The notes under the pieces are model-generated. The model saw only the letters and a list, made by a program, of their open reading frames with translations. It had not been told where the DNA came from and ran no database searches. 64,000 bases of DNA from a virus (Duplodnaviria; Caudoviricetes): positions 64,001 to 128,000 of the IMG/VR virus record IMGVR_UViG_3300016471_001002; one strand, 5' to 3'. Below are positions 23,726-64,000 of this stretch, piece by piece; position 1 is the first letter of the stretch, and every line of letters starts with the position of its first letter. The translations under genes were made by a program, and so were the position numbers.

Positions 23726-24727
23726 ATGAAAGCATATAATAACTTCACAGAAGCTTATGTTGACATCATAAAAGATGTCTATTCTAATCCAGAATTTACT
23801 TCATCGCCTAGAGGTATGAAGGTTAAAGAAATTTTAGGATATCAATTTAAAATTCTAAATCCTAGAAACAGAATTCCTTATGTTCCTGGTAGAGATTTGT
23901 CAGTTCATTACATGATTGCTGAACTTTTATGGTATTTGAGTGGAAATAATTCCACTGAATGGATTAGCAATTATTCTGCGTTTTGGTCTAAAATTTCTGA
24001 TGACGGTAGCACAGCTAATAGCGCTTATGGTGCAAGAATTTTTAAACCTCATGATAGAATTGCATCGACAATCAAGCAAGATTGGACGCAATGGGATTAT
24101 GTTATCAATGAACTAAAATCTGATCCTGATTCAAGACGTGCAGTTATTCATATTCGTTCCCCACAAGATTCATTGTTAGCACAGCTCGATGTTCCATGCA
24201 CATTATCATTGCAATTTTTCTTGCGAAATGATAAAGTACACATGGTCGTTTCTATGAGATCTTCAGATGTCATCCTTGGCTTGGCATACGACGTGCCAGC
24301 TTTCACAATTTTCCAAGAATTGCTCGCTGTACAATTAACAAAAGAGCTTGGAAGATCAATTGGATTAGGGTCTTATACGCACCTTAGCGCATCTCTACAT
24401 GTGTACGAGAGGCACTTTAAAATGGTCGAAAAAATACTTAATGAAGATATGAAGCAAGATTATCGAAACATTCCTGAGATGCCTCTGATGCCTAGTGATA
24501 TTCCTCTTGAAGATCTAATGGCTGTTGAAAAAGATCTAAGAAAATCTAAAACTTCAAGTTCTTTGATCAAAACTGTAGAGAATTTTGGTTTTTCTAATGA
24601 TTATTGGAAAGATTGGTGTAAAGTTTTGGCATCTCACAAAGCATTGAAATTAGATGATCAAAAAACGTCAAATGATCTTCTTTCATCAACAATTTTTGAA
24701 GGGTATAGGTATTTTACGAAGCCATGA
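23726..24727 (+). CDS. Thymidylate-synthase-fold enzyme, probably dCMP hydroxymethylase
   Basis: SRRAV, DVPCTLSLQF, MRSSDVILGLAYDV (Asp where dUMP-specific ThyA has Asn), SLHVYERH. Confidence 0.78.
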   Translation: MKAYNNFTEAYVDIIKDVYSNPEFTSSPRGMKVKEILGYQFKILNPRNRIPYVPGRDLSVHYMIAELLWYLSGNNSTEWISNYSAFWSKISDDGSTANSAYGARIFKPHDRIASTIKQDWTQWDYVINELKSDPDSRRAVIHIRSPQDSLLAQLDVPCTLSLQFFLRNDKVHMVVSMRSSDVILGLAYDVPAFTIFQELLAVQLTKELGRSIGLGSYTHLSASLHVYERHFKMVEKILNEDMKQDYRNIPEMPLMPSDIPLEDLMAVEKDLRKSKTSSSLIKTVENFGFSNDYWKDWCKVLASHKALKLDDQKTSNDLLSSTIFEGYRYFTKP

Positions 24728-56891: not shown

Positions 56892-57270
56892 TGTCATTGG
56901 AAAGAAAAAGACCAAAGCTATCTCGAAAGATGTTCAAAGATTTAAAGTAGGAGATTTGGTAAAGATAGTTGAAGATCCAAATAGTTTTGTGATCGGTGAG
57001 GGTCTCATTGACAGAATGGGTCTCATCGTAGAGTATGATTCAGAAAAAAACATTTATAGCGTTTTATTAGAAAACGGAAACAAATTTAGGATTTTGGATT
57101 TTATGTTGAAAAATGTAAAAAATATGAAAAAGCAAAAGAAACAGAAAAAGTTGGACGAAAGCGATTACACAAAAACGATTACGCACTGTCCAACTTGCGG
57201 AGTTGATCTAAATGGACCTGATTTTTGCAAATCGATAAATTGTGCTTGCGCTCCTAAAATTACGTGTTAA
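56881..57270 (+). CDS. KOW/SH3-like protein with C-terminal CxxC
   Basis: FKVGDLVKI..GLIV; CPTC..C...C.C. Confidence 0.55.
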   Translation: MMRNVIGKKKTKAISKDVQRFKVGDLVKIVEDPNSFVIGEGLIDRMGLIVEYDSEKNIYSVLLENGNKFRILDFMLKNVKNMKKQKKQKKLDESDYTKTITHCPTCGVDLNGPDFCKSINCACAPKITC

Positions 57271-58699
57271 TTATGGGAGATGCAATCAAGCTCTTCTTTA
57301 GAGAAAATATTTAAATGCGGACAGTTGATCACTACAAATTTTGAAGGTGATTACAGGTTAACGTATTGTAGAGTACCTCTAGAGAAAACCATTCCAAATA
57401 ATACTCGATTCTACTGTGGAGACATAGGTCTTATCGTTGAAACGTTAGATGTACCAGACTTATTTTATACGTCTGGATTCGCGATGATTTTAGTTCCACA
57501 AGGAAGAGGGTGGGTCCCTTTTGAGTGGTTAAAGTCGTTGAGTTAATATGTCGCCTGGGGATTTAGTACAAATTACATTAAGAGGAGTATGTTCCGATAA
57601 GTTTATAGGAATATTATTATCAATTTCTCTGGAGTCTCCCCACATTCCAAGGTATGATTCTCAGCAAAGTCGTCCTGGACCGATTTTTAATTTGAAAGTT
57701 TTGAAAATTGATGGAGAAATATGGGATTCTTGGATCGATCAAAATGATATTGTAGAAACTTTATTAAAAAATGAATTATGATTGATCAAAATGATGAAGA
57801 CCGGTGATCTTATCATCGTTATTTCTCACGAATGGGAAAAATCCCAACACGGTCGGCGAGGGTATTCTTCATATCCAAGAGTCCGTGGGTTTCATAAGTC
57901 AATCTACGTAGTACCAGACACGATCGGAATCATACTAGAAAAACGGAATGATTACTACAGGATAGCCTTCGACTCTAGAGAAGTTTGGATGAACATGGAC
58001 AAGGTGAAAAAGCTATAGGATCTCCGGTGGTGGTATGTCGTCGTCTCGTAGAAAAAACGTTGGTGATCTTGTGGTTCCAATCGGTACTTGGGACATTCTT
58101 CTCTTCGATGAAAATGCCGAACTTGGCTACACGATCCACTGGAAACCTGAACACGTGGCTCTCGTCATCGGTATGAAGACCCTCAACGATACCCAAGGAA
58201 GAACTAGGTTAATCGAGGTCCTCACCCCCAACGGTGCCGGATGGTGTTACCTATCGGAGGCTCAGAAGGTAAGATGAACCCCGGTGACCTCGTTAGAAAA
58301 ATCGATTGGAACGGTGAGTTGAATCCCCGGTTGTTAGGGATTCTTCTCGAGGTGAAGATCGATAAAAAGTTGTTGAAGAGCCCCTTTGGAGTTCCGTGGA
58401 TTTATAAAGTGGCATGGAACGATGGTATTATCAAGGAACACGAGATGGGTACCCTCCGCAGGGTTTCAGTCAGGTGAAACATGGAAATCACTTACCACGG
58501 GCACAACACCATAGAACTTAATCCTGGTGACCTAATCCGTTACCAGCTGGTTTCTGGTGTTTGGAACTACATGGGTACATTCATCGATGTTCTTCCACCC
58601 CTTCCTCACCGCGGAAACGTAAGATGGATTCGAGTCTTAACTCAGGACGGTTTGCAGAAGTTAAACACGGCCACCATTTTCAGGATGGAAAAGCAATGA

Positions 58700-58729
58700 G
58701 TGCAAAACCCGTCTTTCCTGTGGTATACT
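58700..58729 (+). promoter_or_regulatory. Putative early promoter
   Basis: GAGTGCAAAAC..., GTGCAA-N18-TATACT with TGG; ATG 58736. Confidence 0.7.
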
Positions 58730-60020
58730 GACCCTATGGATCTGAAGCCCGGTGACCTGGTTCGGCACAAGATCAACCGCGATTGGGTGGGTGTGGTGTT
58801 GGGACTCGCAGTGGACCCGAATTCTCGTAGGAAATTTACGAAGTACACCGCCTACCAGTTGAACTCCTACCGTGTTCTTCGCCTGGGATCTGAATCGACC
58901 CTCTTCGCTAGGTTTCACATCTCGTACTTGGAGGTCATTGGGTGATCAAACCGGGCGATCTGATTCGATTTACTTGGGCTCATCACCAGACGGCCATGGG
59001 TGTTGTTCTATCCATCCATCCACCGCCCAATTATCACAGTGGAATTGATTACACGATAGAGATCTTAGAGCCCGACGGCCGTAAGTTCGTTTATGATGTT
59101 TTTCGGGGTGGTGACCAACCGGAGGTCCTCAGTGAAGCCGGGTGATCTCATTCGTGGGAAGCAAGGCTTCTGGAAGGGCACCCCTCTGGTTGGTATCATC
59201 ATCAAGGAATCTGACCGTAGCAACACCTGGGGAGATGACAGGCACCAATGGTGGACGGTCCTGTGTGAGGGAGGTGTGGTTGTGGACGAGATTGAATCAC
59301 TGATGGAGGTCGTCGATGAAAACTCTTCAGGCAGGTGACCTTGTTCAGGTGGAACCGCATGCCAGTTGCAACGTGGATTGGGGTTCGGCCAAGAGGCATT
59401 TTAACACTGGTAAACAGCCCACCTTGGGAGTCCTGATCGAGAACAAACTCGAGTGGTACCATGTGATGATGAACGATGGTAGATCTGGGTGGATTTGGTT
59501 CCGTGAGGTGAAGCCGTTGTGAAGCCGGGTGATTACGTTTCTGTGACTCGTTATCACAATGGTTTCCGCATGGATGACCCACCTATAACCGGTCTCCTGG
59601 TGGAACGTTGCCCATTGATGCCCTTCGATTCCTTTAAAAGATCTTTCATAATTAAGATACTGGAAACAACAGGGGAATTAAGGGAAATATTTGTGGACAA
59701 TCGTGATGTCACGAAGGTGCTAATTGGAGCCTGAGTACAAGGTCGGTGACCTGGTCCGACTCAATGTGGTCAAGAAACCCTTGGGATTGACGGTCCTCGT
59801 GGACATCAGCGGTGATGTTTTTGCGATGGAGATGAACCGTGATGGTTTGATTCCCAAGATCGTGGGACGGTTTTTCAAGGGTGATGTCGGTGTTGTTCTC
59901 CAGATCGATGATGAAACCTTCATGACTCGGATTATCACCAAGTCAGGTTTGATAGGTTGGGGAAACACTTGGGATTTTATCCCGGTGCAAAACACCGGGG
60001 GATGATGATATTATAGAACC

Positions 60021-60218
60021 ATGAAGCTCGGTGACCTTCTCCTGGTGAATCCTGGAACTCATGTTCCGCCTGGTGGCCGATATTCCCAGGGTGTTGTTCT
60101 AACAAACCCTACCTCTCTGGGTTTTCTCACCATCGCGTGGCGGGATGGTAAGATCACAAGGGAATTTTTGGGTAATGTTTCCAAGTACTACACGGTGATC
60201 AACAGTGAAACCCGGTAA
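60021..60218 (+). CDS. KOW/SH3-like mini-protein, paralogue of 62280..62486
   Basis: GDLLLV.PG..VPPGGRYSQG.VL...AW.DGKIT shared. Confidence 0.7.
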   Translation: MKLGDLLLVNPGTHVPPGGRYSQGVVLTNPTSLGFLTIAWRDGKITREFLGNVSKYYTVINSETR

Positions 60219-60597
60219 ACTCGTTGTGTGGAGAGCTAGATTTCAAATGGATCTTCCTGGTGATATTGGGATCATCCTGGAACACATCCCCCATGAATCC
60301 CGTGGAAATGATCCGTTCCCCCACTGGAAGGTATTGTTTCCGGAACGCGGAGTTCTTCACTGCCGAGAATCGGATCTCCAGGAGGTTGAGTGAGAGTTGG
60401 TGATCTCGTTCTCTACACCAATCCCCAGAGGATGATCTCCCCCACACTCGGGATAATCACCGAGGAACACCACAACATCTCAATCGATCACCGTTTCTTC
60501 TCCGTTCTACTCCACAATGGTAGGAAACAAATCATCTCTGATCACTACCTCTCCCTCCCCGGTGAAAATCCACCGTAGGATGATTTAGGATAACATC

Positions 60598-60813
60598 ATG
60601 AAGAACAAAAGAGGGCATCACTACTTCATTTCCTCCACCAAATCAGGAAAGATTCTTGCCCAAAGCGGGGAGAAAGGTGATGTGGAGAAGTTCTCCGAAA
60701 CATGGATTCGAGAATCTCCCCATTATGATCCAGGTGATCCAATCATCATAGAGAAGGTTACCGTGGATTGGGATGGTTTCAAAACCTCAAAAAAGATCAT
60801 CAAGGAATATTGA
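60598..60813 (+). CDS. Small hypothetical protein (non-KOW member of the array)
   Basis: ORF track; SD AGGA. Confidence 0.55.
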   Translation: MKNKRGHHYFISSTKSGKILAQSGEKGDVEKFSETWIRESPHYDPGDPIIIEKVTVDWDGFKTSKKIIKEY

Positions 60814-60816
60814 ACA

Positions 60817-61068
60817 ATGCCGCTCTATAGAGTAACATTCCATACAGAAATCCTCATCGATGCCCGTGATGAACGTGAGGCCGAGAGGATTGGGGATAGA
60901 AACCTAGAATCCGAGGTTAGGAACTGTGGATCCGAGGTGTATCGGATTGAGGAATTGAATTCCGTGGATCAACTCCGAAGGGCAGAGAGGGGTTCCTTAC
61001 CTTGGAGAGCAACGGAGAGAAGAGGGGAACCTGAGCTACTGGTGGAAGAGATTCTGGGAGGAAAGTGA
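60817..61068 (+). CDS. Small hypothetical protein (non-KOW member of the array)
   Basis: MPLYRVTF..IDARDEREAE. Confidence 0.55.
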   Translation: MPLYRVTFHTEILIDARDEREAERIGDRNLESEVRNCGSEVYRIEELNSVDQLRRAERGSLPWRATERRGEPELLVEEILGGK

Positions 61069-61071
61069 ACC

Positions 61072-61437
61072 GTGGGTACAAACTATTATCTCCACCAAAA
61101 ATCAACCTCGATGTGTGAACACTGTGGGCATGACCCCGGTGCCAAGGTGTTACACATAGGAAAATCCTCCTATGGTTGGTGTTTCTCCCTTCACATCATT
61201 CCTGAGGAAGGTATCAATTCCTTGGATGATTGGAAGTTGGCCTGGGATAAACCTGACACCAAGATCCTCAATGAATATGATGAGGTTGTCCGGCCCGAGG
61301 ACATGTTGAAGATCATCACCACTCGTGGCCCTGGAAAATGGTCACCTGAGGGAATGGATCCACAGAGACATGATGGGGATCACTGTGTTGGGCATGGAAA
61401 TGAATCATATGATCTTATCATTGGGGAATTTAGTTGA
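61072..61437 (+). CDS. Phage hypothetical protein
   Basis: MGTNYY..CEHC..LHIGKSSYGWCFSLH. Confidence 0.6.
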   Translation: MGTNYYLHQKSTSMCEHCGHDPGAKVLHIGKSSYGWCFSLHIIPEEGINSLDDWKLAWDKPDTKILNEYDEVVRPEDMLKIITTRGPGKWSPEGMDPQRHDGDHCVGHGNESYDLIIGEFS

Positions 61438-61467
61438 GTGCAAAACACCGTGAGGGGATGATATACT
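61438..61467 (+). promoter_or_regulatory. Putative early promoter
   Basis: GAGTGCAAAAC..., GTGCAA-N18-TATACT with TGA; ATG 61474. Confidence 0.7.
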
Positions 61468-62279
61468 GGTAACATGGAGATCATCCGGGTACATGAACTT
61501 CAGGTTGGAAAACTGTACCGTTGGAATGAGTACATGGGTGATCAAGATGAGATCTTCATGGTGGTTGGAAACCCCATCGATGGAGTATCTCAGGATGTTC
61601 ACTATGTGGAAGTAATTTCCAGTAAGTTTTCCCACAATAAAATGATGGTTTTCTCCTCCGATCGATTCAACGAGGTGATGGAATGAAGCCCAGTTCCGGT
61701 ATGGTTCCAGGTGTTCTGGTTAGAAACCGTTGCTATATGCATTTTTATCTCACCGCGGAAAGTGTTAACCGTGGAATTCCGAAGGAAGGAATTCCTATGG
61801 ATTCCATCAGTACTGTTCTCACCCCGCCTAACGGAACCTGGATCAAGGTTCTGTGTGATGGTAAGATCGGCTGGGTTAACTGGACCCTGTGGCTTGAGGT
61901 GATCCAGTGAAACCAGGTGATCTGGTTAGGTTAACTCGTTTCGATGAGATACCTTTCATTGGTGTTTATCTCGGCCCATCCAATAGATTTGATGAGAAGA
62001 GACAACCTTATGAGGGGAGGTTCGTGTTGAACACCGGAATCATTAAAGATGTTGATTTCGGAAACCATTTGGTTTGGAACTTCGAGGTGATGAAGTGAAA
62101 CTATCTCTCGGTGATATGGTTTTCGTGAGGGATTCTCTCTTTGTTCCTCCAACAAAACCGTTAATCATCATTGATATCTACAAGGTAGGGCTTTCTTCGT
62201 ATCCCTACTTCGTGGTTGTGGATCCAAACACCGGTGAAAAGTTTACTTACCAGAAACACGATCTTTCGGAGGATCCTCT

Positions 62280-62486
62280 GTGAGTTTTTGTGTTGGTGAT
62301 TTACTCCTCGTGGCACCGGGTTCATATGTTCCACCGGGTGGAAGATATTCCCAGGGGATTGTTTTATCTGATCCTGATCCAGGTTTCCGTACCGTGTATG
62401 TGGCCTGGTATGATGGTAAGATCACCCAGGAATTGGTGAGTAACCTTTTGAAATCCTACGTGAGGATCACCAATGATTCTAGGTGA
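62280..62486 (+). CDS. KOW/SH3-like mini-protein, paralogue of 60021..60218
   Basis: Shared VPPGGRYSQG and DGKIT. Confidence 0.7.
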   Translation: MSFCVGDLLLVAPGSYVPPGGRYSQGIVLSDPDPGFRTVYVAWYDGKITQELVSNLLKSYVRITNDSR

Positions 62487-63304
62487 TCTTCTCCAGGCAA
62501 AGAGTAAAATCCAGGTTGGTGTGGTTCGGATCTACAGGGAGCCCCAATGTGATTCATGGGAAACACACACGATAAAGGGTGAAACATTCCTTCTATTGGA
62601 GGAACACAAGAATCAGTGGGGCCAGGATGTTTGTAAGGTTCTATTTCCCTGGGGAATCCGTTGGGTTTACCGGTTGGATGTGGAGGTGGTGGAATGAAAA
62701 GGGGAACCTTGGTTCGATTCAACGTTTCCATCTATTCTGATTGGGGTTTGGGGATTCTCCTCGGTGAGAAACCGATTGTGGATAGAGAAGGTAGGAATCA
62801 CCGTGGATTTTATGATGTTTTAACCCAGTGTGGAGTTAAACTAGTTTCCAGTGAATACTTTGAGAGGTTGAGTTGGGATGTTTAGCATTGGTGATTTGGT
62901 GAGGATGAAGAAAGTTTATAGTTCCACACCACTTTTTTCCACCTGGGGAAACAAGGAAGGTGGTGATAAACCCATTGGAACCATTCAACCAGGTGAGATC
63001 GGTGTTGTTCTTGAAACAACCCAACCTCGAGGTGGAAACGGGGCACGGATCATGGTATCCGGTGGGAAGATCGGTTGGGTTAATCTTATTTTCCTGGAGA
63101 ATGAAACATGAAACCTGGGGATCTTCTCAAATTCATCCATATTGTTGATCTAATGGATCCGATTTACCGTGAATCCGGGTGGAAGTTTGGGATCTACCTG
63201 GAGCACAAAAACATTAAGTTCAGTGGTGAAACCATAAAGGTTATCGATTCCGACGGGAAGATAAACCACTATCCTCAGGATTCATATCATTTCCAGGTGG
63301 TGGA

Positions 63305-63478
63305 ATGATTCCATCTCCAGGTGATTTGGTAAAAGTGAAAGGCTACAGAACAGATTCACTCGGGTTGATTATCGATATTCAAGGTGGAACTGGTTTGTAC
63401 CGGGTTTGGTTGCTCGGCCAACCTGATCTCTATAAGGTTTTCCGGTATTCCAAGGAGATGTTGGAGGTTGTGGGGTGA
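63305..63478 (+). CDS. KOW/SH3-like mini-protein (57 aa, not in the ORF track)
   Basis: MIPSPGDLVKVKG..GLIIDI..YRVW..LEVVG; fills the gap between coupled neighbours. Confidence 0.7.
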   Translation: MIPSPGDLVKVKGYRTDSLGLIIDIQGGTGLYRVWLLGQPDLYKVFRYSKEMLEVVG

Positions 63479-64000
63479 GAAACAATGATATCCCCAGTAT
63501 CAATCAGGTGGTACCTGGATCCCTGGTTATCCACCGTTACACCCCTGAGATCGGTGTGGTTCTCCGCGTTTCCTGGAACATGGTTGAGGTTCTACTTGGA
63601 AACTCCACCGTGAAGTGGGAGATGAATGGATTCAGAAGTACCTATAGGAATCTCCAGTGAGAATCGGTGATATGGTTCAACTCAGCCCCTCCCACAAGAG
63701 TTACGTTAACATGTATGAGGAGGATGATCTGAACCGAATAGAGAACGGTGAAAGGTTCTACCGGAATGATATAGGATTGGTTCTGGAGAGCCAAGGGAAC
63801 GGGGAATACATCCACTTCAAGGTTTTAACTCCCCGCGGGGCAATGGGGTGGATCCATAACTTCCACCTGGAGTTGGTGAGATGAAACCCGGAGATTTGGT
63901 TTTAATCTCCGCGGATTTTCTGGAACCACATGAACCCCGTGTGGGGATATTCTGGAGTGATAAGGTTCCACTGGATGAATGGGGAGATCAGGTTGCAGGT

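What the first reader, a model, noticed from the sequence alone, without database searches (positions are those of the whole stretch)
57540..64000. Strong, graded depletion of the GpC dinucleotide confined to the mini-gene array
Seen (hand counts, approximate): about 47 GpC in 60181-64000 (about 12/kb) and about 61 in 57541-60180 (about 23/kb), versus about 26 in 1381-1980 of nrdJ (about 43/kb) at visually similar G+C. Many 60-nt lines have none. The ORFs there contain 0-2 Ala each. CpG, GG/CC, GATC, GGATCC and CCGG remain common, so this is not general palindrome avoidance. Inference: selection acts on the DNA and costs Ala codons. This could be a first-injected or early segment evading a GpC-recognising nuclease, methylase or DNA-modifying toxin, a context the phage's own modification cannot protect, or a module acquired from a GpC-avoiding phage.
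Basis: partly seen in the sequence, partly recalled or inferred. Interest (0 to 1): 0.66.

Follow-up and report, generated by a model that had tools for sequence, protein, structure and literature searches.

The report
Phage DNA block purged of GC/GWC
A 24-kb block of an uncultured lake jumbo phage has lost most GC dinucleotides and nearly all GAC/GTC trinucleotides, which cost its proteins three quarters of their alanine; related phages keep the same block, so an unidentified agent that reads only 2-3 bases of DNA is probably selecting against these words.

Summary

- **Extent.** The window holds only the left quarter of one island, genome 121.3-145.6 kb. Nested inside it is a 20.5-kb zone almost free of GAC/GTC (about 30 sites against about 500 expected).
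- **Not an amino-acid artefact.** Depletion is equal in all three codon phases and symmetric between strands. Asp is 99% GAT, Val GTC is 0%, and Ala is 1.7% against 6.9%.
- **Not a recently acquired foreign module.** A complete 298-kb relative (core identity about 53%), two other viral contigs and most of about 30 lake metagenome loci carry the same purged block.
- **Position-dependent.** A GT51 gene is purged inside the island, but its homologues in 41 other phage contigs are not.
- **Two separable signals.** A 57%-GC relative has the GWC purge with normal GpC.
- **Agent unknown.** My best guess (0.35) is a segment exposed to DNA-acting agents before protection is in place, like the first-step-transfer DNA of phage T5.

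This scan had already noted the GWC purge in the next window. It has also noted word-purged segments in three other phages.

The parts
57232..57279 (+). Left edge of the island: a sigma-70-like promoter match just upstream of the first GpC-depleted gene
   Evidence: Promoter-like site at 57232-57260. The GpC change point is at 57,317, 37 nt into the gene that starts at 57,280. The promoter call is a consensus match only.
57280..60033 (+). Upstream zone: GpC depleted (o/e 0.23-0.54) with GAC/GTC at normal frequency. It holds about 10 small + strand ORFs.
   Evidence: Per-gene counts, for example 57782-58018 with GC 3/10.0 and GWC 7/5.9, and 59724-60005 with GC 4/16.4 and GWC 12/8.2. 500-nt profile.
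59983..60023 (+). Copy of the phage's leaderless promoter class (GTGCAAA... -10 ... ACCATG), sitting exactly where the GWC-free zone begins
   Evidence: A weight matrix built from 22 genomic copies scores 26 bits here. The last dense GWC site is at 59,942 and the change point is 60,033. Island copies replace AGTC and AAGACC by GWC-free variants but keep the GC inside GTGCAAA.
60034..64000 (.). Start of the core zone: GpC o/e 0.15-0.33 and GAC/GTC nearly absent. It continues off the window to genome 144,535 (window-equivalent 80,535). GpC stays low to about 145,600.
   Evidence: There are 9 GWC sites in 60,034-64,000 against about 90 expected, and 6 of them lie in one ORF, 61072-61437. Genome-wide profiles.
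61072..61437 (+). A 121-aa ORF that still carries 6 GAC/GTC: a probable recent arrival, not yet purged
   Evidence: GWC 6/10.4 and GC 6/19.3. No homologue in the related islands.

Best explanation
One delimited segment of the phage genome is under long-lasting, position-dependent purifying selection against two short palindromic DNA words. The segment spans genome 121.3-145.6 kb; the window holds its first 6.7 kb. GpC is reduced 3- to 7-fold over the whole segment. G-A/T-C is reduced more than 20-fold over the inner 20.5 kb. Selection acts on the nucleic acid, not on the proteins. It removes the words by synonymous choice where that is possible (GAC to GAT, GTC to GTT/GTG) and by giving up alanine where it is not.

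Inferred mechanism: the words are targets of DNA-acting agents, and this segment must stay free of targets because it is exposed or needed before the phage's general protection is in place. That makes it a functional counterpart of the site-free first-step-transfer (pre-early) DNA of phage T5.

Two agents are implied, because the two depletions occur separately. The GWC reader works regardless of base composition. The GpC reader may read guanine followed by the phage's 5-hydroxymethylcytosine, as a modification-dependent nuclease would.

Shown: the depletion, its frame independence, its strand symmetry, its conservation and its dependence on position. Inferred: that the agents are host defences, that exposure is early, and the link to hydroxymethylcytosine.
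For: Real and extreme:
- Counts and rho.
- Only GC at spacing 1 and G.C at spacing 2 are depleted; spacing 3 and above is normal.
- GTC and GAC are the two most depleted trinucleotides.
- Nothing further is avoided at the 4-mer level.
- An unbiased scan of all 2- and 3-mers finds only these words purged, and only in the island.

Acts on the nucleic acid, equally on both strands:
- Equal in all codon phases.
- Strand-symmetric: GAC 71 / GTC 49, AGC 85 / GCT 95, TGC 110 / GCA 122.
- Asp GAT 99%, Val GTC 0%, Ala 1.7% against 6.9%.

Segment-level and in situ:
- Residents of every kind are purged: minus-strand homing-endonuclease genes, the GT51 gene, and a gene with a late-type promoter.
- The GT51 gene has GWC 0.16 and GpC 0.45 here. 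Its homologues in 41 other phage contigs have 0.57-1.5 and 0.64-1.3.

Maintained by selection:
- A complete 298-kb relative has one such block and is otherwise normal.
- Core identity is about 53%.
- Three island orthologues differ at 53-69% of four-fold sites yet stay word-free.
- Two more viral contigs and most of about 30 metagenome loci show the same.

Two agents:
- A 57%-GC relative has 5 GWC in 7.1 kb with GpC at 0.99.
- The flanking zones have low GpC with normal GWC.
- Endonuclease gene 2 has GWC 0/14.9 but GC 19/21.8.

No phage DNA methyltransferase of the three main families is present.

Precedent: T5-like phages resist restriction, CRISPR and Ssp systems provided the sites are absent from their first-step-transfer region (PMC10644984).
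Against: - No enzyme is known that reads GWC, and none that reads GpC with the context pattern seen here.
- The same word is purged in 40%-GC and 57%-GC phages. This fits a phage-intrinsic or universal agent better than host-specific restriction enzymes.
- Nothing shows that the block enters first. The complete relative's terminal repeat is a 123-bp assembly overlap. No repeats flank the block. Earlier notes of this scan call the phage T4-like, and such phages are usually circularly permuted.
- The block contains at least one gene with a late-type promoter and a capsid-targeting-like N-terminus.
- The same promoter class drives unpurged cassettes elsewhere in the genome. Expression class alone therefore does not explain the purge.
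- GWC is at normal frequency for 2.7 kb at one end and about 1 kb at the other. This fits poorly with simple entry from either end.
Confidence: 0.35

Rival explanations
1. Unmarked patch. The words are recognition contexts of the phage's own DNA-modifying or DNA-processing enzyme, for example the transferase that decorates hydroxymethylcytosine. The block is kept free of them so that it alone stays unmarked or uncut, for instance so that an unmodified host polymerase can read it.
For: - The same word is purged in phages of very different G+C, as expected for an agent inherited with the phage.
- The genome encodes a cytosine-5-hydroxymethylase-like enzyme (best solved match MilA CMP hydroxymethylase, 8.5e-44, against 1e-18 to 4e-23 for thymidylate synthases) next to two sugar epimerases.
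- The complete relative has the hydroxymethylase, one clear epimerase homologue, thymidine kinase and dCMP deaminase.
- An 87%-complete relative that lacks the hydroxymethylase even at the syntenic site has no purged block.
- GpC depletion is absent from the one island-bearing contig in which no hydroxymethylase was found.
Against: - No enzyme with this specificity was identified.
- The putative glycosyltransferase of this genome has no homologue in the complete relative, which nevertheless has both depletions.
- No methyltransferases are present.
- The words are not enriched in the rest of the genome, where GpC is 1.03 and GWC 0.98.
- The GWC purge occurs in a contig without the hydroxymethylase.
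- The genome counts behind the correlation are tiny and most contigs are incomplete.
Confidence: 0.2
2. Avoidance of small-molecule binding or cross-link sites. GpC steps and G-X-C triplets are the known duplex sites of actinomycin-type intercalators. 5'-GC and 5'-GNC are the sites of N7-guanine interstrand cross-links. Such lesions block transcription of the single incoming genome copy.
For: - The avoided geometry is exactly G followed by C at spacing 1 or 2, and not the reverse order C..G.
- GGCC, the weakest actinomycin site among XGCY tetramers (established knowledge), is the only GC tetramer not depleted: 1.01 against 0.22-0.34 for AGCT, TGCA and CGCG.
- Chemistry is the same in every host, which fits the constant word.
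- DNA intercalators are documented anti-phage chemical defences that act early in infection (PMC13250531).
Against: - GWC is purged far more strongly than GpC, the opposite of actinomycin affinity.
- The 57%-GC relative has normal GpC.
- GGC/GCC are not purged there, although mustard-type cross-links accept any central base.
- The GGCC exception shrinks once the general GG/CC enrichment is allowed for.
- The block has several internal promoters, so it is not one long vulnerable operon.
- There is no ecological evidence for such compounds in these lakes.
Confidence: 0.1
3. Primase-site avoidance. 5'-GTC-3' is the recognition triplet of T7-type primases, and GCT/GCA are those of the T4 and SP6 primases. 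Removing GTC from both strands (that is, GWC) and thinning GC would keep the block free of primer starts.
For: - The word matches established knowledge of phage primase specificity.
- The complete relative encodes a 329-aa protein with weak zinc-ribbon and DnaG-core matches.
- The agent would be phage-intrinsic, which fits the constant word.
Against: - There is no known benefit of a primer-free 20-kb block.
- The primase matches are below family thresholds and the enzyme's specificity is unknown.
- The island-less relative was not examined for this primase type, so the link between primase and island is untested.
Confidence: 0.06
4. Inherited composition of a circulating gene pool. Island genes move between the islands of different phages and carry their composition with them, so the pattern reflects origin rather than local selection.
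For: - Homologues of island genes in relatives lie almost only in their islands, in shuffled order.
- Two orthologues are nearly identical at four-fold sites (3/22 and 1/24 differ) although core proteins are about 53% identical. This shows recent exchange.
- Codon usage in the island differs in ways unrelated to the words: TCC, GTG, GGG, CGG and AGG are up.
Against: - A pool can stay word-free only if something keeps removing the words. Saturated orthologues remain word-free.
- Genes whose relatives elsewhere are normal are purged when inside.
- Probable arrivals are partly purged.
- No genome with genome-wide avoidance was found.
Confidence: 0.08
5. Context-specific mutation (for example a cytosine deaminase acting at GC and GWC) rather than selection.
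For: The transition products are among the most enriched trinucleotides: ACC, CAC, GTG and GGT at 1.8-2.0x, and GAT, ATC, AAC and GTT at 1.2-1.5x.
Against: - G+C is higher in the block, not lower.
- There is no strand asymmetry.
- Asp and Val frequencies are kept while their forbidden codons vanish.
- The GC inside the conserved promoter element is retained.
- A mutator confined to one block with sharp edges in many phages has no known mechanism.
Confidence: 0.04

Closest known systems
First-step-transfer (pre-early) DNA of phage T5 and BF23 (PMC10644984)
   Same: A contiguous block of mostly small genes of unknown function. In T5 it must be free of the recognition sites of host nucleases for the phage to escape restriction, while the rest of the genome carries those sites freely.
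   Different: In T5 the block is the terminal repeat and its first entry is shown experimentally. Here the ends are unknown. The avoided words are 2-3 bp rather than 4-8 bp sites. The block is 24 kb and contains late-type and endonuclease genes.
Restriction-site (palindrome) avoidance in virulent phage genomes (established knowledge: Sharp 1986; Rocha et al. 2001)
   Same: Frame-independent under-representation of palindromic words through synonymous codon choice.
   Different: Known cases are genome-wide and concern 4-6 bp sites of identified enzymes. This case is local, concerns a dinucleotide and a trinucleotide, and changes amino-acid composition.
Hyperplastic regions and promoter-early stem-loop (PeSL) cassettes of T4-type phages
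   Same: Tandem small genes with variable content, each or every few preceded by the same promoter. They are exchanged between related phages.
   Different: No word purge has been described for T4 hyperplastic regions. The phage's other cassette array (genome 205-211 kb) is not purged.
McrBC (RglB) type IV restriction of hydroxymethylcytosine phages, half-site R-mC
   Same: It reads a purine followed by a modified cytosine, so G-hmC would be a target. The phage probably makes hydroxymethylcytosine.
   Different: McrBC also reads A-mC, and AC is not depleted here (0.88 against 0.81). It does not explain GWC or the confinement to one block.
Other word-purged phage segments noted by this scan (e1-183535 CA/TG in a Wifcevirus terminal repeat; e1-3409407 VGA/TCB in a first gene; e1-5667947 AGC/GCT in a marine T4-like phage)
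   Same: Frame-independent loss of 2-3-base words in a delimited, probably early part of a phage genome.
   Different: The words, sizes (1-2 kb or nearly genome-wide) and phage groups differ. These are unchecked AI notes and were not re-tested here.

Membership tests
Restriction-site avoidance by a phage | Word under-represented beyond base composition and codon constraints | tested here: met
   GpC o/e 0.35 and GWC 0.15-0.22 over the island. Equal in three codon phases.
Restriction-site avoidance by a phage | Word is the site of an enzyme present in the host | not testable with these tools
   The host is unknown. I know of no enzyme with GWC specificity (own knowledge, not a REBASE search).
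Restriction-site avoidance by a phage | Avoidance extends over the whole exposed genome | tested here: not met
   Only one 24-kb block is affected. The rest has rho 1.03-1.09.
T5-type first-step-transfer / pre-early segment | Block lies at a fixed physical end (terminal repeat) and enters first | tested here: inconclusive
   The contig is linear and 65% complete. The complete relative closes on a 123-bp overlap. No flanking repeats. No reads were available.
T5-type first-step-transfer / pre-early segment | Free of targets that are common in the rest of the genome | tested here: met
T5-type first-step-transfer / pre-early segment | Holds only pre-early genes | tested here: not met
   It contains three homing-endonuclease genes preceded by AT-rich late-like upstream regions, and a 248-aa protein with a late-type motif before its ATG and a capsid-tag-like N-terminus. 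Expression itself was not measured.
Horizontally acquired compositional island | Absent from related genomes or flanked by mobility signatures | tested here: not met
   Present in G001, G002, G003 and G007 and in most of about 30 metagenome loci. No flanking repeats.
Methylation-deamination decay (CpG-type) | Loss of the dinucleotide with gain of transition products and falling G+C | tested here: not met
   Transition products are enriched, but G+C is higher in the block, there is no methyltransferase, and the purge respects amino acids.

The most novel reading that the evidence does not exclude
Lake jumbo phages keep a 'clean' genome segment because an as yet undescribed duplex-DNA-reading agent with only 2-3 bp of specificity (G-W-C, and G followed by hydroxymethyl-C) attacks or blocks incoming phage DNA. 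The agent could be a new kind of ultra-short-specificity defence nuclease, or a GpC/GXC-binding chemical defence. If so, word-purged segments would be a general read-out that reveals such agents from sequence alone.
Probability: 0.3. Interest if true: 0.85.

Novelty: new variant of a known kind. Interest (0 to 1): 0.74.

Why it matters
Avoidance of a dinucleotide and a trinucleotide is strong enough here to strip alanine from about 60 proteins. It is held in one block across phages whose core proteins are only half identical. That implies a selective agent of very low sequence specificity which nobody has described.

The block gives a sequence-only handle on that agent. It also marks which part of a jumbo phage genome is under a special constraint, which could be tested as first entry or first use. 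Together with similar blocks noted in unrelated phages, it suggests a general and searchable class of feature.

It also matters for annotation. Composition-based gene finders and tests for 'foreign DNA' will misread such blocks.

Tried and rejected
- **Amino-acid artefact.** Rejected by the codon-phase control.
- **Longer hidden motif.** A maximal-order Markov analysis of 4-mers shows nothing beyond the di- and trinucleotide level. The ACG/CGT deficit (0.44) is largely a by-product of losing GACG.
- **Phage methyltransferase.** None of PF00145, PF01555 or PF02086 is present in four genomes.
- **Single 20-kb operon vulnerable to roadblocks.** Weakened: the block holds at least six to seven copies of the phage's own promoter class.
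- **Spurious-promoter avoidance.** TTGACA and the phage's GTGCAAAGTC...AAGACC contain the words. Rejected as the main cause, because selection on promoters would not remove every isolated trinucleotide.
- **Synteny with the right-flank gene.** 33 relatives found through the 609-aa flank gene show no island within 10 kb. The left-flank gene found no relatives.
- **Link between the hydroxymethylase and GpC depletion.** Four hydroxymethylase-bearing contigs (52-78% complete) hold no island and no island genes, so they are uninformative.
- **Genes shared by island-bearing genomes but absent from the island-less one.** Only a dUTPase-like protein, a metallophosphatase and unknowns were found. No nuclease or modifier turned up.
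- **Pfam and PHROGs on the mini-proteins.** No families.
- **Near-identity DNA search of the phage collection.** No match.


Full report
**1. The observation**

The window is bases 64,001-128,000 of a single 211,097-bp virus contig. IMG/VR classes the contig as linear and CheckV estimates it at 65% complete.

- 61 GpC in 57,541-60,180 (rho 0.42)
- 47 GpC in 60,181-64,000 (rho 0.24)
- 26 GpC in 1,381-1,980

The rest of the window has rho 1.09. Equal-sized windows outside the island across the genome give mean 1.05, sd 0.16-0.175 and minimum 0.60.

G+C in the region is 45-50%, higher than most of the window. CpG is only mildly low. GG/CC, GATC and CCGG are enriched. The change point for GpC density is window 57,317, where it falls from 40.7 to 16.3 per kb.

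**2. The true extent, and a second, stronger signal**

Whole-genome profiles show a single island from genome 121.3 to about 145.6 kb. The window holds only its left quarter.

Spaced-pair counts show that G followed by C is depleted at spacing 1 (0.35) and spacing 2 (0.33). It is not depleted at spacing 3 or more, and C followed by G is not depleted in this way.

GTC (0.15) and GAC (0.22) are the two most depleted trinucleotides. From genome 124,034 to 144,535 there are about 30 GAC/GTC sites where roughly 500 are expected. Most of the survivors lie in three genes. In the window, GWC falls from 22 to 2.3 per kb at 60,033.

I verified it independently.

At the 4-mer level nothing further is avoided once 3-mers are accounted for. 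A blind scan of every 2- and 3-mer in 3-kb windows finds only GAC/GTC and GC-containing words purged, and only in this island.

**3. It is selection on the nucleic acid**

| Measure | Island (phases 1 / 2 / 3) | Rest of genome |
|---|---|---|
| GpC o/e, given position-specific base frequencies | 0.36 / 0.43 / 0.33 | 0.88 / 1.15 / 1.07 |
| G-N-C o/e | 0.31 / 0.37 / 0.39 | about 1.0 |

The depletion is strand-symmetric:
- GAC 71 / GTC 49
- AGC 85 / GCT 95
- TGC 110 / GCA 122
- CGC 68 / GCG 55

Where a synonymous escape exists, it is used almost without exception. Asp is 99% GAT (69% elsewhere). Val GTC is 0% (23% elsewhere). The Asp and Val frequencies themselves are unchanged. Ala has no escape and drops to 1.7% against 6.9%, or 5.3% in small genes elsewhere.

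A mutational origin is unlikely, for three reasons:
- G+C is raised, not lowered.
- There is no strand bias.
- The GC inside a conserved promoter element is retained.

**4. It is a property of the position, kept for a long time**

Genes of every kind inside the block are purged:
- about 60 small + strand ORFs
- three paralogous homing-endonuclease genes on the minus strand (GWC 1/16, 0/15 and 6/19)
- a 546-aa protein with a GT51 transglycosylase domain (GWC 8/51, GC 45/101)
- a 248-aa protein with a late-type motif before its ATG

The GT51 protein belongs to a large family found on jumbo-phage-sized contigs. In 41 other viral contigs the homologous gene and its flanks have normal word frequencies: GWC 0.57-1.5 and GpC 0.64-1.3. 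The same gene family is therefore purged only when it sits in the block.

Related phages carry the same block.
- A complete 297,894-bp genome (G001) is colinear with this one, and its core proteins have a median identity of 53%. It has exactly one such block, at about 56.6-70 kb, with a graded GpC tail to about 80 kb. It is normal elsewhere.
- Two further viral contigs begin inside such a block.
- The 248-aa island protein has 106 homologue clusters. Of about 30 lake-metagenome and viral loci that carry it, most are GWC-free around it.

Island genes have homologues almost only in the islands of the other phages, in shuffled order.

Four-fold degenerate sites of three island orthologues differ at 53-69%, which is near saturation, yet the words have not returned. 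Two other orthologues are nearly identical, which shows recent exchange between islands.

The block sits at different places relative to the core genes in G000 and G001. It has no flanking repeats.

An 87%-complete relative (G004) has no purged word anywhere.

**5. Two separable depletions**

- A 57%-GC phage contig (G007/L063) has a 7.1-kb stretch with 5 GWC sites against about 290 expected, while its GpC is 0.99. It has a second GWC-free stretch nearby.
- In this genome the first 2.7 kb and the last about 1 kb of the island have low GpC and normal GWC. Several metagenome loci show the same.
- Endonuclease gene 2 has no GWC but nearly normal GpC.

So the finding handed to me, GpC depletion, is the weaker and less conserved of two overlapping signals.

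Both zone starts coincide with a promoter plus a first gene. The GpC zone starts after a sigma-70-like match at 57,232-57,260. The GWC zone starts at a copy of the phage's own leaderless promoter class at 59,983-60,023. Island copies of that promoter use GWC-free variants of positions that read AGTC and AAGACC elsewhere.

**6. What the agent might be**

No C5, N4/N6 or Dam-type methyltransferase is encoded in four genomes.

The genome does encode a thymidylate-synthase-family enzyme whose best solved relative is a cytosine (CMP) 5-hydroxymethylase (8.5e-44). It lies between sugar epimerases, thymidine kinase and dCMP deaminase.

G001 shares the hydroxymethylase and has both depletions. G007 lacks a detectable one and has only the GWC purge. 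G004 lacks it at the syntenic site and has no island. This hints that the GpC signal is tied to modified cytosine, but n is 3-4. Four further hydroxymethylase contigs were uninformative because they lack the island region altogether.

Assemblies often break just upstream of the 248-aa gene. Hypervariable gene content is enough to explain that.

I rank the readings as follows.

- **Exposed-first segment (0.35).** The block must be free of targets of DNA-acting agents because it is exposed or needed before protection exists. This is the logic shown experimentally for the T5/BF23 first-step-transfer region (PMC10644984). It explains the sharp-edged block, the purge of anything that lands in it, and its long maintenance. 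It does not explain why the word is the same in 40%-GC and 57%-GC phages. Nothing shows first entry. Late-type genes lie inside.
- **Unmarked patch (0.2).** The words are contexts of the phage's own modification or processing enzyme, and the block is kept unmarked. This fits the constant word and the hydroxymethylase lead, but no enzyme was found.
- **Small-molecule or cross-link sites (0.1).** GpC and G-X-C are the duplex sites of actinomycin-type intercalators and of N7-guanine cross-links (established knowledge). GGCC, the poorest actinomycin site, is the one GC tetramer not depleted. Intercalators are known anti-phage chemical defences (PMC13250531). However, the relative strength of GWC over GC, and the normal GpC in G007, argue against this.
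- **Primase triplets (0.06).** GTC is the T7 triplet and GCT/GCA are the T4/SP6 triplets.
- **Inherited pool composition (0.08).**
- **Context-specific mutation (0.04).**

**7. Comparison with what is known, and novelty**

Local freedom from nuclease sites in a phage segment is known from T5. Genome-wide avoidance of 4-6-bp palindromes is textbook. I believe the combination of the following features here is undescribed:
- words of only 2 and 3 bp
- a near-total purge over 20 kb
- a measurable cost in amino-acid composition
- conservation of the block as a movable unit across deeply diverged jumbo phages
- two nested but separable word domains

Full-text searches found no description of such depletion in phages. 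I file it as a new variant of a known kind (site avoidance in a special genome segment) with an unknown agent.

This scan had already flagged the GWC purge in the adjacent window. It had also flagged comparable word-purged segments in three other phages. Those notes were leads and not evidence.

**8. Limits**

- No reads, no host and no expression data were available.
- Gene calls are my own longest-ORF tiling, and some minus-strand calls in the island are probably shadows.
- Most related contigs are incomplete.

Noticed in passing
L001:60-1370 (genome 128,060-129,370) and window 63,881-64,000: A run of overlapping-stop/start mini-genes (GTGA/ATGA junctions). Their products all begin M/V-K/R-x-G-D-L/M-V and end ...E-V/L-L/V. 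They look like a tandem family of small beta-barrel (SH3/KOW-like) proteins too diverged for BLAST. No Pfam or PHROG family matched.
   Followed up: partly
window 59,983-60,023; genome 134,056, 138,215, 140,427, 144,141: Copies of the phage's leaderless promoter class (GTGCAAAGT-N16-extended -10-ACCATG, 22 exact-core copies, all on the + strand) occur inside the island. There they use GWC-free variants: AGTT/AAAC for AGTC, and AGAACC/GGAACC for AAGACC. Several share a CCGCGGG spacer.
   Followed up: partly
genome 124,034-144,535: GATC is 2.7-fold over-represented (210 copies in 20.5 kb, one per 98 bp). The 3-mer-based expectation accounts for it, so it is probably a by-product of GAC-to-GAT and GTC-to-ATC replacement. 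A Dam-type function was not excluded.
   Followed up: partly
It has 106 homologue clusters in lake metagenomes. Independent assemblies repeatedly break 60-400 bp upstream of it.
   Followed up: partly
genome 124,598-124,813 and 133,053-133,442 versus G001 59,912-60,121 and 62,037-62,246: Two island genes are almost identical at four-fold sites between phages whose core proteins are about 53% identical. This points to recent gene exchange between islands.
   Followed up: partly
L001:3282-4922 (genome 131,282-132,922): The 546-aa protein with a C-terminal GT51 transglycosylase domain belongs to a family of more than 1,600 full-length relatives, many on contigs of 100-530 kb. It is therefore a jumbo-phage protein family and not a recent host capture.
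   Followed up: partly
window 23,726-24,727: A thymidylate-synthase-family enzyme matches the CMP 5-hydroxymethylase MilA (E 8.5e-44) far better than it matches thymidylate synthases or the T4 dCMP hydroxymethylase (E 1.9e-15).
   Followed up: partly
G007 (IMGVR_UViG_3300035670_000028), about 49-53 kb and 62-68 kb: This 57%-GC relative has two separate GWC-free stretches with normal GpC. A homologue of the 515-aa gene that lies about 7 kb past the island's right edge in G000 lies in or beside the first stretch.
   Followed up: no
genome 146,000-152,700 and 172,000-178,000: Strand-specific GG depletion (0.6-0.7) with CC enrichment (1.2-1.5) over long minus-strand genes, including a 1,741-aa ORF. 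It is unrelated to the island.
   Followed up: no
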